Part shown: positions 36,953 to 40,634 of the stretch, piece after piece
Layout: each line of letters starts with the position of its first letter
Position numbering within the stretch: position 1 is the stretch's first letter
Assembly: GCA_027887005.1 (NCBI GenBank)
Contig: JAPCJI010000008.1
Span: forward strand, 2,162 to 66,161
From: Nitrososphaerota archaeon
Lineage (GTDB): Archaea > Thermoproteota > Nitrososphaeria > Nitrososphaerales > Gagatemarchaeaceae
DNA length: 64,000 nucleotides
Direction of reading: 5' to 3'
The notes under the pieces: generated by a model
What the model was told of the DNA's origin: nothing
Seen by the model: the letters and a program-made list of their open reading frames with translations, nothing else
The model's database searches: none
Translations under genes and position numbers: made by a program

Positions 36953-39123
36953 GGCAGCCTACCTCCGAGTGCGAGCAGGAGGAAGGCGACCAGGATTATG
37001 ATCCCGATGGCGAAGACCTGGGCGTACTGTTCGACTATCCCCGTCTGCATCCTCCGGACGAAGCGCGAAAAGGCCTGACCGAGGGCGGAGAATCCGTTGG
37101 CCACTCCGTCTACGACCTTGACGTCGAACCAGTTGCCTGCCGTCGATAGTGACACGCCGAGCACCGACCCGGCCTGGTTGACCCTGAAGAGTCCTCTGAA
37201 GTCGAAGGTCTCGCTTAGCCAGCTGGCTGCGGCCATGGGAGCGTCCACGAAGACCTTGTAGTAGATCGCGTTGATGTACCACCTCTTGTAGAGGAAGGAG
37301 TAGAGCCCGTGCATGAAGCCCGTGGCGCCGACGAACCTGCTCGCGCTCGTCCTTCGAATGAGGTAAATGGCCGCGGCTGCGAGGAACCCAATCGCTACGA
37401 AGAGGCCGACGATGCCGGAGGCGGCCGCGTTGAAACCTGCCTGAGGCGAGGAGAGGACCTGCGAGGGGAAGAACGTCTGGACGTACGAAGTGGCCGCCGA
37501 GTCGAGGGTGGCCTCCACGTTGAACGCGGGGACGGCAAGGCCCAGGAGCGCCCCCAGCCCGATCAGCACGGTCGCGCCTGCCAGTATCCCGTAGGGGATC
37601 CACATGATTGGGCTTGGCTCATGGACGTGGTGGCCGCTCCCCTCGACCTCTTCTAGCCGCTTGCTCCTCCCCCCGAAGAATACCAACCCCAGCATCCTGA
37701 ACGAATAGAAGGCGGTGAGACCTGCTGTCAGTGCCCCAACTGCGAAGAGGGCGTACTGCCCCGCTCCCCAGGCTGCTCCCAGGACCGCGTCCTTGCTCCA
37801 AAAGCCGCTGAAGGGCGGGATGCCAGAGAGGGACGCGACTGCTATGAGGAACGCCGCGAAGGTGAGCTTCATCCTGTCCCTCATCCCACCCATGTCGCTG
37901 ATGTACTTCGAGTCTGAGGCGTGGATCAGGGCACCGGCGGCCAGGAACAGGCAGGCCTTGAAGATGGCGTGGCTCATGAGCTGGTAGAGGCCTGCTGCCA
38001 GGCCCTGGGCGAAGTCGACGGAGAGGCCCGCGACACCGACAGCGAGCATCATGTAGCCGATCTGAGACATGGTCGAGTAGGCGAGGATCTTTTTCAGCTC
38101 GAACCCAACTAGAGCCTGGCTCGCGGCCAGGACGGCGGTGAACGCGCCGATCCATGCCACCGTGAGGAAGAAGGGTTGGACCGAGGCGAGCCCGAGGGTC
38201 GGGTTCGCCAGGGCGATGAAGTAGAAGATTGGTGCTATCCTCGCGACCAGCACCACGCCGGCCTTGACCATCGTGGCGGCGTGGATGAGGGCTGACACTG
38301 GTGCGGGGCCCGCCATAGCGTCAGGGAGCCATTCGTGCAGGGGGAACTGGGCCGACTTGCCCACTGCACCGCCGAAGATCAGGAGGGCCACCGGAACGAG
38401 CAGGCCGGACCTGGACAGGCCTTCGAACCAGGAGTGCGAGTCCGAGGCGAGCTGGTAGTAGTTGAATGTCCCGGCGTAGTAGAAGAGGATCAGGATCCCC
38501 GCGAGCATCGCCACGTCGCCGACCCTGGTCATTACGAACGCCTTCATCCCTGCGTGCGACGGGGAGTAGGCCTGGTCTTCGCCCAGGGCCCTGTCTCCGG
38601 GGGTGCCGACCCAGTCCTTGGTCTCGTCCTTCCAGTAGTGCCCGATGAGGGCGTAGCTGCATAGGCCGACCATCTCCCAGCCCACGAAAAGGGAGAGGAG
38701 GTTGTCGGAAAGGACGATGAGCTGCATGCTCCCGACGAAGAGGCTGACGAAGAAGAAGTAGCGGTTGGAACCCCCGTCTTCCTTCATGTATTCGAGACTG
38801 TAGACCATGATCAGGAAGCTCACCCAGGCCACGACGTTGGTCAGTATGGCGGTGTAGGGGTCGGTCAGGACGCCGACGGTGAGGTTCAGTCCTGAAATCC
38901 ATGGCACGCTCTTCGGAATCACCGAATCGACCACGCTCAGGGCCTGTCCTTCGAGGAGGGGAAGGAGCATGCTCAGGGCGAAGGCCGCAGAGAGGAAGGA
39001 GAACGCAACCGAGACCACGTTGGCGGGCCTTCCGGCCTTTCTGAGGGCTACGGTCAGCAGCGCGCCGGCGTAGGGCAGGATGAAGATGAGCCAGACGAAG
39101 TAGGACGGGATTACGAAGGTCAC
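36949..39123 (-). CDS. nuoL: NADH-quinone oxidoreductase subunit L, unusually long (724 aa)
   Basis: [37 protein letters not shown] and a C-terminal lateral-helix region ([11 protein letters not shown]...[11 protein letters not shown]). GTGA overlaps at both ends. Confidence 0.85.
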   Translation of the reverse strand: [724 protein letters not shown]

Positions 39124-40634
39124 GCGTGTATCCCTCCTATGGGCAGGCTGCTGGCGAAGGCGATCAGGAACTTCGAGACCAGGTCAGGGTAGATGCCGAT
39201 GACTATGGATGCGACCACCAACGCGAGCATGGGTATCGTCATCGTCAGCGGCGCGTCCCTGACCCCTTCGAGGGTCGGCGGGAGCGAGCCGAAGAAGATC
39301 CTGCGGACCGGCCAGAATGTGTAGGCGACGGTCAGGAGGGTCGCGATGAGCCCGAGGATTGCGACCAGCAGATAGCTGGAGGAGCCGGCGGCGCCCTGGG
39401 AGAAGATGCCCGCGAACATTATCCACTCTGCCTGGAAACCGCTCGTGGGAGGGACGGCAGAGAGTATCAGGGCTCCCAGCACGAAGATGGAAGCTGTGAA
39501 CGGCATCTTCGCGGCCAGGCCGCCCATCTGTTTGACGTCTCTGAGGCCCGTCTGAGTGAGGAGTATCCCTGCCACGGCGAACATCACGAACTTCCCGAGG
39601 ATGTGGCTCGCGAAGTAGAAGACTCCCCCTGCTACACCGAGGGCAGACCAGCTGGCGATCCCCAGGATTGAGTAGGCGTTCTGGCTCATGGTCGACCAGG
39701 CGAAGATGTACTTGACGTCGGTCTGGGCGACGGTCACGGCGCCCCCGTAGAACATTGTGACGACTGCCCAGACCATCAACGGGAGGCTGAAGGTGTGGAA
39801 GGTCGAGGGCATGCCGAAGAGCAGCAGCCGCGCGATGACGTAGCTCCCAATGCCCGAGACGACAGCCATCGTTGGCGCGAAGGAGGTCGGGGGCTCTGCC
39901 TCAGTTATCGGAAGCCACATGTGCAGACCGAACACCGCCATCTTGACAAGCCAGCCCACGAGAATCAGCCCGGCGATCCAGAAAGCGATGGAGCTCGACT
40001 GGGCCAGGTGGAGGGCGCCTATCTCGAAGCTCCCTGTTGCGACGTAGGCCAGGGCGATGCCGGCGAGGAATACGAAAGCACCGAGCTGGTTCCAGATGAT
40101 GTAGATTATGCCGACCCTTTCCCTGTCGACGTAGCCGAAGAGGCTGATGATCACGAAGGTCGGTATCAGGACCGTCTCAAGAAAGAGGTAGAGCTCGATG
40201 AGGTTTGTCGAGAGGAGTATGCCGTCCAGCCCGGCGGAGACCAGCATGAAGCTGAGGTAGTAGATTCCGTAGCTCCCATGCCTGTCTTCCCCGTAGAGCG
40301 AATTGACCCGGGTCGTCATGTAGGGCATTGAATAGACTGCGGTCGCCGCCAGGACGAGGTTCACCACGATCACCAGGGGGAAGCTGAGACTGTCGGCCAG
40401 GAAGCCGAAGGTCAGGCCTGCGCTGGGGGCCCAGGTGTAGGACTCGAGGACCTGTGAGATGCTCCCCGTGAAGAGCTGTGAGGCTGCGAGCAGGAGCAGG
40501 GAAGCGGTTGTGATAAGGAGGGCGGCAAAGGCGAGCCATCCGACGTTCTTTCCGAGCTTCCCCGCCCCCAGGTAGCAGAGGGCCGCGAATACCATGGGAA
40601 GGACTACGGTCTGGAGAAGGAGGTATTGGTACAT
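39120..40634 (-). CDS. additional, divergent NuoM-like antiporter-type subunit
   Basis: Proton_antipo_M-type core: LFLETVLIPTF, LHMWLPITEAEPPT, AWSTMSQNAY and PPTSGFQAE. Located between nuoK and nuoL. Confidence 0.75.
   Translation of the reverse strand: MYQYLLLQTVVLPMVFAALCYLGAGKLGKNVGWLAFAALLITTASLLLLAASQLFTGSISQVLESYTWAPSAGLTFGFLADSLSFPLVIVVNLVLAATAVYSMPYMTTRVNSLYGEDRHGSYGIYYLSFMLVSAGLDGILLSTNLIELYLFLETVLIPTFVIISLFGYVDRERVGIIYIIWNQLGAFVFLAGIALAYVATGSFEIGALHLAQSSSIAFWIAGLILVGWLVKMAVFGLHMWLPITEAEPPTSFAPTMAVVSGIGSYVIARLLLFGMPSTFHTFSLPLMVWAVVTMFYGGAVTVAQTDVKYIFAWSTMSQNAYSILGIASWSALGVAGGVFYFASHILGKFVMFAVAGILLTQTGLRDVKQMGGLAAKMPFTASIFVLGALILSAVPPTSGFQAEWIMFAGIFSQGAAGSSSYLLVAILGLIATLLTVAYTFWPVRRIFFGSLPPTLEGVRDAPLTMTIPMLALVVASIVIGIYPDLVSKFLIAFASSLPIGGIHA

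What the first reader, a model, noticed from the sequence alone, without database searches (positions are those of the whole stretch)
39120..40634. The extra NuoM-like subunit lacks one of the conserved channel lysines
I compared the four antiporter-like proteins across the conserved TM7-TM8 segment:
- NuoM: [31 protein letters not shown]
- NuoN: [29 protein letters not shown]
- NuoL: [29 protein letters not shown]
- extra protein: LHMWLPITEAEPPTSFAPTMAVVSGIGSYV

The PDA(H/Y/M) motif is replaced by PITE. There is no Lys in the position of the LLK/TKK/MVK lysine. By my recollection this is about 31 residues after the TM7 Lys and is equivalent to E. coli NuoM K265.

The extra protein keeps three other key residues: the TM5 Glu (LFLETVLIP), the upstream TM7 Lys (WLVKMAV) and a NuoM-like TM12 Glu (SGFQAEW). 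This looks like a selectively remodelled proton path rather than a recent duplicate.
Basis: seen in the sequence. Interest (0 to 1): 0.6.

Follow-up and report, generated by a model that had tools for sequence, protein, structure and literature searches.

The report
Archaeal NuoM subunit without central lysine
One of the four proton-pump-like subunits of this soil archaeon's respiratory complex I has glycine where a "central" lysine normally sits; the change is ancient and strictly conserved, and the same lysine-less protein is the only NuoM-type subunit in every ammonia-oxidising archaeon I sampled.

Summary
The 504-aa gene (39120-40634, minus strand; "Mx") sits between nuoK and nuoL. It keeps the TM5 Glu (E153), TM7 Lys (K231), TM11 His (H344) and TM12 Glu (E403). 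At the position of E. coli NuoM K265 it has Gly261.

This is not an assembly error or a recent duplicate:
- None of the 120 closest protein clusters, 80 loci from GTDB species genomes or 14 further genes has Lys, Arg or His there. The 80 loci read Gly 75, Ala 4, Asn 1.
- Mx forms its own old clade (support 100/99), separate from canonical NuoM. It occurs in Nitrososphaeria, Bathyarchaeia, Asgard archaea and ANME-1.

"Extra" is probably the wrong label. All 20 amoA-positive genomes sampled lack a canonical NuoM, and 19 carry Mx. The window encodes a known "2M" complex I: four modules, a 27-residue insertion in the NuoL lateral helix, and no NuoF.

My best mechanistic reading is inferred, not shown. 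Mx still works, with NuoL-like wiring through its TM11 His-Lys pair and water in the space left by the glycine.

Unverified notes from this scan report lysine-less second NuoMs in bacterial 2M complexes on other DNA.

Novelty: a new variant of a known kind.

The parts
39120..40634 (-). Mx: 504-aa NuoM-type antiporter-like subunit lacking the TM8 central lysine
   Evidence: PF00361 164 bits. TIGR01972 228.8 bits, below its cut-off of 263.8. AF2 model pLDDT 92.2, pTM 0.93, with broken TM7 and TM12. Best Foldseek matches are NuoM/ND4/NdhD/MrpD, TM-score 0.83-0.88 among the top 10.
39831..39953 (-). TM7-TM8 segment (residues 228-268) holding K231, H238, E245, E247 and Gly261
   Evidence: Alignment to E. 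coli NuoM/N/L. Codon positions checked.
39852..39854 (-). Gly261 codon, at the position of E. coli NuoM K265
   Evidence: This position is Gly 75, Ala 4, Asn 1 in 80 Mx loci.
39591..39605 (-). TM11 His344-x3-Lys348 (E. coli NuoL H338/K342 columns), the proposed alternative central site
   Evidence: Lys 80/80 and His 79/80 in Mx loci. Canonical NuoM has V/I/A at the Lys column.
39426..39428 (-). TM12 Glu403 (E. coli NuoM E407 column)
   Evidence: Glu 70, Lys 10 in Mx loci.
40176..40178 (-). TM5 Glu153 (E. coli NuoM E144 column)
   Evidence: Glu 80/80.
36949..39123 (-). nuoL, 724 aa; its start overlaps the Mx stop
   Evidence: TIGR01974 479.9 bits. The tail after the TM12 Lys is 281 residues, against 253 in most ammonia-oxidiser NuoLs and 215 in E. 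coli.
37108..37188 (-). 27-residue insertion (NuoL residues 646-672) in the lateral helix, specific to four-module clusters
   Evidence: Alignment of NuoL tails. A 26-aa insertion in the same helix (HL) is reported for Nitrospira 2M NuoL (PMC9040806).
35477..36952 (-). canonical nuoM, 491 aa, with the full E/K/K/H/H/E residue set
   Evidence: TIGR01972 436 bits. Residue pattern. Groups with E. coli NuoM at 100/100.
34015..35475 (-). nuoN, 486 aa
   Evidence: Best NCBIfam match TIGR01770 (NDH_I_N), 303.5 bits, below its cut-off of 332.6. Residue pattern.
40697..41020 (-). nuoK (start codon not fixed)
   Evidence: PF00420 94.7 bits.
41023..41529 (-). nuoJ
   Evidence: PF00499 92 bits.
41522..42037 (-). 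nuoI (171 aa, no intein)
   Evidence: 4Fe-4S domains. Relatives carry inteins in this gene.
42038..43207 (-). nuoH
   Evidence: PF00146 323.7 bits.

Best explanation
Shown:
- The gene encodes a constrained, full-length NuoM-type subunit (Mx) of a NuoEFG-less, four-module ('2M') complex I. The host is a non-ammonia-oxidising Nitrososphaerales archaeon.
- Mx belongs to an old archaeal clade in which the TM8 central lysine (E. coli NuoM K265) was replaced by a small residue, almost always Gly, at the base of the clade.
- The same protein type is the sole M-type subunit in all ammonia-oxidising archaea sampled.

Inferred:
- Mx is still a working module of the proton-translocating arm, but it is wired like NuoL rather than like bacterial NuoM.
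- It keeps the TM5 Glu/TM7 Lys pair, which receives the electrostatic signal from the neighbouring subunit, and the broken helices TM7 and TM12.
- It has a TM11 His-x3-Lys pair (NuoL H338/K342 columns) and a TM12 Glu.
- The proposed lateral path is K231, then water in the space freed by Gly261 (perhaps helped by Glu245 in this lineage), then H344/K348, then E403.
- In E. coli NuoL the K265 column is also not a lysine (it is Thr).
For: Part of the complex:
- The gene sits between nuoK and nuoL, and its stop overlaps the nuoL start.
- NuoL carries a 27-residue lateral-helix insertion found only in four-module clusters. This matches the 26-aa insertion reported for 2M complexes (PMC9040806).

Constraint:
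- Mx is 77% identical to its closest GTDB relative (L003), like L (79%), M (82%) and N (78%) there.
- The TM7-TM8 segment is nearly invariant.
- The K265 position is Gly in 75/80 loci and 14/14 further genes, across proteins only 36% identical overall. That pattern indicates selection for a small residue, not drift.

Indispensable:
- 0/20 amoA-positive genomes have a canonical NuoM orthologue, while 19/20 have Mx.
- Five ammonia-oxidiser genomes have exactly three PF00361 genes.

Fold:
- AF2 pLDDT 92 with discontinuous TM7 and TM12. Foldseek TM-score 0.83-0.88 to NuoM/ND4/NdhD/MrpD among the top 10 matches.

Wiring:
- TM11 Lys is present in 80/80 Mx loci and TM11 His in 79/80.
- The E. coli NuoL K265 column is Thr.
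- In M-type relatives that have the TM11 Lys, the TM8 position changed between Lys and non-Lys at least 12 times.
Against: - In E. coli NuoM, K265 is taken to be the proton donor to E407 via H322 (PMC9271201). Mx lacks both K265 and H322.
- Mx has no counterpart of the NuoL-specific TM8 His (H254), so the NuoL analogy is incomplete.
- I found no Mx-specific compensating polar residue. The candidates (Y101, Y105, T143, E147, S328, T432) are shared with K-containing sister lineages. Only T397 is weakly clade-specific.
- The link between having the TM11 Lys and losing the TM8 Lys is not significant once relatedness is allowed for (6-8 independent pairs, median p 0.5).
- I had no model coordinates, no water positions and no biochemistry.
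Confidence: 0.5

Rival explanations
1. Mx is a non-pumping coupling or spacer module. It keeps the TM5 Glu/TM7 Lys switch and the TM12 Glu, so the electrostatic wave still passes along the arm. But it no longer takes up and moves a proton of its own. A 2M complex would then pump four protons rather than five, and the ammonia-oxidiser enzyme would pump three.
For: - The two residues proposed to carry the proton across E. coli NuoM (K265 and H322) are both missing.
- No compensating ionisable residue is found in TM8.
- In some relatives the canonical NuoM has also lost K265 and H322 (L011, L015-L019), which suggests that pumping by M-type modules is relaxed in this lineage.
Against: - Gly is very strictly conserved at the site, and the whole TM8 motif ([14 protein letters not shown]) is conserved.
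- The TM11 His-Lys pair, TM12 Glu and both broken helices are fully retained. That is more than a passive spacer should need.
Confidence: 0.33
2. Mx is specialised for another task. Examples are gating proton back-flow for reverse electron transport to a low-potential acceptor, or handling a different ion, rather than ordinary forward pumping.
For: - The complex lacks NuoEFG: no NuoF was found in a 96% complete genome.
- 2M complexes have been proposed to run in reverse (PMC9040806, PMC12342949).
- Ammonia oxidisers, which need reverse electron flow (established physiology), keep only Mx.
Against: - I did not look for Na+-binding signatures, so nothing here bears on ion choice.
- The window organism has no amoA, and the Gagatemarchaeaceae, which supplied related loci (L008, L012), are described as non-ammonia-oxidising (PMC10640624); yet it carries the same protein.
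- Direction of operation cannot be read from sequence.
Confidence: 0.12
3. The missing lysine is a sequencing or assembly error, or the gene is a decaying duplicate.
For: None found.
Against: - The frame is open and full length.
- The same residue is found in 120 independent clusters, 80 GTDB loci and 14 further genomes.
- Mx is the only M-type gene in complete, single-contig ammonia-oxidiser genomes.
Confidence: 0.01

Closest known systems
2M-type complex I (Chadwick, Hemp, Fischer & Orphan 2018, ISME J 12:2668; 'clade 2' in heterotrophic marine Thaumarchaeota, PMC7300363)
   Same: Four antiporter-like genes in one nuo cluster, a NuoL lateral helix lengthened by about 26-27 residues, and no NuoEFG.
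   Different: The papers I could read treat the second M as an extra proton pump and do not mention a missing central lysine. Here one of the two Ms lacks it, and that M is the one retained when only one is present. I could not read Chadwick 2018.
E. coli / mitochondrial NuoM (ND4)
   Same: 14-TM antiporter fold, broken TM7 and TM12, TM5 Glu, TM7 Lys, TM11 His and TM12 Glu.
   Different: K265 is Gly and H322 is Gln. A Lys is present four residues after the TM11 His. TIGR01972 scores below its cut-off. Mx forms a separate clade.
NuoL / MrpA wiring
   Same: TM10 Gln and TM11 His-x3-Lys. The K265 column is not necessarily Lys: it is Thr in E. coli NuoL, and K/N/T in the archaeal NuoLs here.
   Different: Mx lacks the NuoL-specific TM8 His (H254), the Asp at the E. 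coli NuoL D178 column, the C-terminal TM15, lateral helix and TM16, and the TM12 Lys.
Second NuoMs of bacterial 2M complexes noted earlier in this scan (e1-2819505, e1-3229432, e1-5254713)
   Same: According to those notes, a second M-type subunit naturally lacks a lysine that is called essential.
   Different: Those are other (bacterial) lineages. At least one concerns the TM7 lysine, which Mx keeps in 80/80 loci. I did not check those notes.

Membership tests
Proton_antipo_M superfamily (PF00361) | Pfam domain above the gathering score | tested here: met
   164.2 bits against 21.5.
NuoM subfamily (NCBIfam TIGR01972) | Score above the curated cut-off of 263.8 bits | tested here: not met
   228.8 bits for Mx, against 436.3 for the neighbouring canonical NuoM. 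Two K-less representatives of the wider Mx clade (P0143, P0145) do pass, at 292-293 bits.
NuoM/ND4 | 14-TM antiporter fold with discontinuous TM7 and TM12 | tested here: met
   In the AF2 model the helices break at 232/240 and 391/398. Foldseek TM-score 0.83-0.88 to NuoM/ND4/NdhD/MrpD chains among the top 10 matches.
NuoM/ND4 | TM5 Glu and TM7 Lys pair | tested here: met
   E153 and K231, each present in 80/80 Mx loci.
NuoM/ND4 | TM8 central Lys (E. coli K265) | tested here: not met
   Gly261. Across 80 loci the position is Gly 75, Ala 4, Asn 1; it is Gly in 14/14 further genes.
NuoM/ND4 | TM10 His (E. coli H322) bridging K265 and E407 | tested here: not met
   Gln318, 80/80 loci.
NuoM/ND4 | TM11 His (E. 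coli H348) and TM12 Glu (E407) | tested here: met
   H344 (79/80 loci) and E403 (Glu 70, Lys 10).
2M-type complex I | Four antiporter-like genes within one nuo gene cluster | tested here: met
   nuoH-I-J-K-Mx-L-M-N at 34015-43207.
2M-type complex I | Insertion of about 26 residues in the NuoL lateral helix | tested here: met
   27 residues (646-672). Present in four-module clusters and absent from the K-Mx-L-N clusters (and most K-N-L-Mx clusters) of relatives.
2M-type complex I | All four modules assembled in one enzyme, moving a fifth proton | not testable with these tools
   Needs purification, a structure and stoichiometry measurements.
Mrp antiporter / MBH (MrpD, MbhH) | Encoded with the small Mrp subunits (MrpB, C, E, F, G) or hydrogenase genes | tested here: not met
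   The neighbours are nuoK and nuoL. MrpD and MbhH are close by sequence and fold only.

The most novel reading that the evidence does not exclude
The 'invariant' central TM8 lysine of the NuoM module is naturally dispensable. A whole archaeal lineage runs complex I with an M module that has Gly at this position. That lineage includes the sole NuoM of every ammonia-oxidising archaeon sampled. Two outcomes are possible. Either lateral proton transfer works through water and a TM11 lysine, or these enzymes move one proton fewer per cycle. The second outcome would change the energy budget assumed for archaeal nitrifiers and the meaning of the 'extra pump' in 2M complexes.
Probability: 0.4. Interest if true: 0.75.

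Novelty: new variant of a known kind. Interest (0 to 1): 0.6.

Why it matters
Models of complex I treat the TM8 lysine of each antiporter-like subunit as the central proton-loading site, and K265 of E. coli NuoM is the proposed donor to E407 (PMC9271201). Here nature supplies a large, strongly conserved lineage without it. That lineage includes the globally abundant ammonia-oxidising archaea.

This allows direct tests:
- Does an M module need this lysine at all?
- Can a TM11 lysine take its place?
- Does every module pump?

It also qualifies the common statement that 2M complexes simply gain a fifth proton. And it corrects the picture for ammonia oxidisers: those sampled here have one M-type subunit, of the lysine-less kind, not a duplicated NuoM.

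Tried and rejected
- **Chadwick et al. 2018.** The paper is not held by DOI or PMC id. I could not check whether the residue was already described. Six further literature searches on NuoM, and the citing papers read, mention no missing lysine.
- **Compensating residue.** I looked for Mx-specific conserved polar or charged residues. Nearly all are shared with K-containing sister lineages, so I rejected them as compensations.
- **TM11 Lys versus TM8 Lys loss.** The raw counts look strong (52/20 against 5/24). With independent pairs on the tree the association is not significant. I keep it as a hypothesis only.
- **Recent duplication of NuoM.** Rejected by the trees.
- **Mrp or MBH membership.** Rejected by gene context.
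- **Naming the more distant K-less or Glu-bearing relatives**. Few carry names; those that do are Bathyarchaeia, Nitrososphaeria, Thermoprotei and Geothermarchaeota.
- **Physical order of M and Mx along the arm.** This cannot be inferred from gene order or from the TM12 residue. No multimer prediction was available.
- **Hydrated channel.** The AF2 model's coordinates cannot be inspected, so the channel could not be modelled.
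Full report
**What is in the window.**
- Eight co-directional genes on the minus strand (34015-43207) encode nuoH, I, J, K, a 504-aa NuoM-like protein (here "Mx", 39120-40634), nuoL (724 aa), nuoM (491 aa) and nuoN (486 aa).
- The Mx stop overlaps the nuoL start.
- The host is an archaeon: the window also holds topoisomerase VI-like ORFs by my reading of the translations, and an aSUI1 gene.
- The genome is 1.6 Mb and 96% complete. 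It has no amoA and no NuoF. It belongs to the same GTDB order as the ammonia oxidisers.
- nuoABCD lie on another contig (C23:999-3622).
- A second, smaller complex-I-like cluster lies on contig C24.

**The observation.**
- I fetched E. coli nuoL/M/N and aligned them with the window's proteins and relatives.
- Mx reads E153/K231/H238/G261/Q318/H344/K348/E403 at the columns of E. coli NuoM E144/K234/H241/K265/H322/H348/A352/E407.
- So the central TM8 lysine is glycine. The TM10 histidine thought to bridge K265 and E407 (PMC9271201) is glutamine. A lysine sits four residues after the TM11 histidine, as in NuoL and NuoN.
- Mx has no counterpart of the NuoL-specific TM8 histidine (E. coli H254).
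- No Lys, Arg or His lies between H238 and the universally conserved R269.
That change is confined to the window's sub-lineage; the clade consensus is P(Y/H)AH.

**It is neither an error nor a private change.**
- A search of 5.8 billion proteins gave 1234 hits. The 120 listed (73-91% identical) all carry HMWLPITEAEPPT(S/A)FAP.MA.VSG.G.YV with minor variation.
- A profile-free scan of 1.84 billion cluster representatives and a scan of GTDB species genomes reached more distant relatives.
- I extracted and labelled the genes of 80 loci. The K265 column reads Gly 75, Ala 4, Asn 1 and never Lys, Arg or His. The TM7 Lys, TM5 Glu and TM11 Lys are present in 80/80.
- The clade consensus is [29 protein letters not shown].
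- The loci come from non-ammonia-oxidising Nitrososphaerales, Nitrosopumilus, Nitrosotalea, Nitrosotenuis, Bathyarchaeia, Promethearchaeota (Asgard), Methanophagales (ANME-1), Culexmicrobium and one bacterial MAG.
- Fourteen more genes cut from genomes of the same order all have Gly. Four of them come from a family of amoA-positive genomes of 2.3-3.2 Mb.

**It is an old lineage, not a duplicate of the neighbouring nuoM.**
- A FastTree of 127 antiporter-like proteins and an IQ-TREE (LG+C20, 60 rows) agree.
- The Mx clade (100/99) is separate from the canonical NuoM clade (100/100), which holds E. coli NuoM and the window's nuoM. N and L form their own clades.
- The K-containing lineages nearest to Mx show E-K-H-K-Q-H-K-E. 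The TM10 Gln and TM11 Lys are therefore ancestral, and the event at the base of the Mx clade is the loss of the TM8 lysine.
- Other M-type lineages in this (biased) sample lost it as well, to Ser, Asn, Glu, Val or Ala. That gives at least 12 changes among 101 non-L rows.

**Which subunit is 'extra'?** Three gene orders occur:
- K-Mx-L-M-N: the window clade, some Bathyarchaeia, Asgard archaea and one bacterium.
- K-Mx-L-N: all ammonia oxidisers.
- K-N-L-Mx(-Mx2): other Bathyarchaeia and ANME-1.

The supporting counts are:
- Five ammonia-oxidiser genomes hold exactly three PF00361 genes.
- In an even sample of 61 genomes of the order, the 20 amoA-positive genomes (four families, five each) have no canonical NuoM orthologue (0/20 at E<=1e-80). 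19/20 have Mx. 24 of 40 amoA-negative genomes have the canonical NuoM.
- In the class-level sample, 0/21 genomes of the family f2 have it; the five f2 genomes later tested for amoA all carry it.

So Mx is the module that is always kept, and the canonical NuoM is the optional one. The Mx, L and N trees place the ammonia oxidisers beside two four-module, amoA-negative lineages (L040, L064). That pattern fits loss of NuoM in ammonia oxidisers. The direction is not proven, because the tree is unrooted within this group. A preprint states that ammonia oxidisers have a duplicated M; the genomes sampled here do not show that.

**All four modules probably sit in one enzyme.**
- The NuoL tail after the TM12 lysine is 215 residues in E. 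coli. It is 241-255 in most three-module archaeal clusters (253 in most ammonia oxidisers), though two K-N-L-Mx loci (L031, L046) reach 274-275. It is 267-290 in all but one four-module cluster (L039: 235), 281 in the window and 317 in the two Asgard loci.
- The difference maps to one block of 27 residues (NuoL 646-672, window 37108-37188) within the lateral-helix region, between the conserved RWYINA motif and the RxQTG motif that precedes the last transmembrane helix.
- This matches the 26-residue insertion described for Nitrospira 2M NuoL (PMC9040806).

**Structure.**
- An AlphaFold2 model built on a 27-sequence alignment is confident: pLDDT 92.2, pTM 0.93.
- It shows the canonical discontinuous helices TM7 (break at 232-240) and TM12 (break at 391-398), and a continuous TM8 (253-272).
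- Its best PDB matches are NuoM, ND4, NdhD and MrpD chains, TM-score 0.83-0.88 among the top 10.
- I could not inspect the coordinates, so no channel or hydration analysis was possible.

**How it most likely works (inference).**
- Mx keeps everything that receives and passes on the signal along the arm: the TM5 Glu/TM7 Lys pair, the TM12 Glu and both broken helices. It also keeps the distal half of the lateral path (TM11 His-Lys).
- Gly is conserved across proteins that are otherwise only 36% identical, inside the most conserved motif of the family. That argues for selection for a small residue, not decay.
- I therefore favour a working module with NuoL-like wiring. Water in the glycine cavity would link K231 to H344/K348 and then to E403. 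In this sub-lineage Glu245 may contribute.
- The main rival is a module that relays the electrostatic signal but no longer moves its own proton.
- Points against my preferred reading: I found no lineage-specific compensating residue. The association between the TM11 Lys and loss of the TM8 Lys is not significant once relatedness is considered. In some relatives the canonical NuoM has also lost K265 and H322, which hints at relaxed pumping in M-type modules.

**Comparison with what is known, and novelty.**
- The gene cluster is a member of the known 2M class (Chadwick et al. 2018, as cited in PMC7300363, PMC9040806 and PMC7117926).
- What I did not find in any accessible paper is that one of the two Ms lacks the central lysine, or that this same protein is the only NuoM of ammonia oxidisers. 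Chadwick 2018 itself could not be read.
- Earlier unverified notes of this scan report lysine-less second NuoMs in bacterial 2M complexes on other DNA, so the theme recurs.
- I rate this a new variant of a known kind, of moderate to good interest.

Noticed in passing
L004:4490-6109, L008:3963-6122, L012:698-3421 (relatives); window 41522-42037: In many close relatives nuoI is 538-908 aa. In the two I scanned (L004, L008) the extra length matches Hint/intein-splicing and LAGLIDADG endonuclease domains, which points to one or more inteins. The window's nuoI (171 aa) has none.
   Followed up: partly
own genome, contig C24:49500-56066 (outside the window): This is a second complex-I-like cluster: NuoD-like, H, I, probable J and K, a 574-aa L-like gene and a 482-aa N-like gene. 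It has only two antiporter-like subunits. The N-like one has Glu at both the TM7 Lys and TM8 Lys columns.
   Followed up: partly
L011, L015-L019 (M genes, e.g. L018:10515-12134); L013, L014, L024 (M genes): In one sub-lineage of four-module clusters the canonical NuoM has also lost the TM8 Lys (to Ala); in all but L017 it has lost the TM10 His (to Gly) as well. Both M-type modules there lack the central lysine. In another sub-lineage the canonical NuoM has Glu in place of the TM7 Lys.
   Followed up: partly
window 43208-43600; own genome C23:999-3622: The nuo genes are split. nuoH is preceded by a SUI1 translation-factor gene, and nuoA-B-C-D lie on another contig.
   Followed up: partly
trees: The window clade's Mx groups with the ANME-1 (Methanophagales) Mx on a long stem. 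Its L, M and N group with L040, L064 and (for L and N) the ammonia oxidisers. This means either faster evolution or replacement of Mx in this lineage.
   Followed up: no
L035, L036, L065, L075: Some Bathyarchaeia have K-N-L-Mx-Mx2. These are two tandem Mx-type genes, both without the TM8 Lys (Gly, and Met/Leu), with a NuoL tail of 288 residues. This four-module design contains no canonical NuoM at all.
   Followed up: partly
rep P0158, P0160 (Thermoprotei / Geothermarchaeota by cluster names): These M-type subunits have Glu at the K265 position (SGVMIE...), which reverses the charge of the central site.
   Followed up: no
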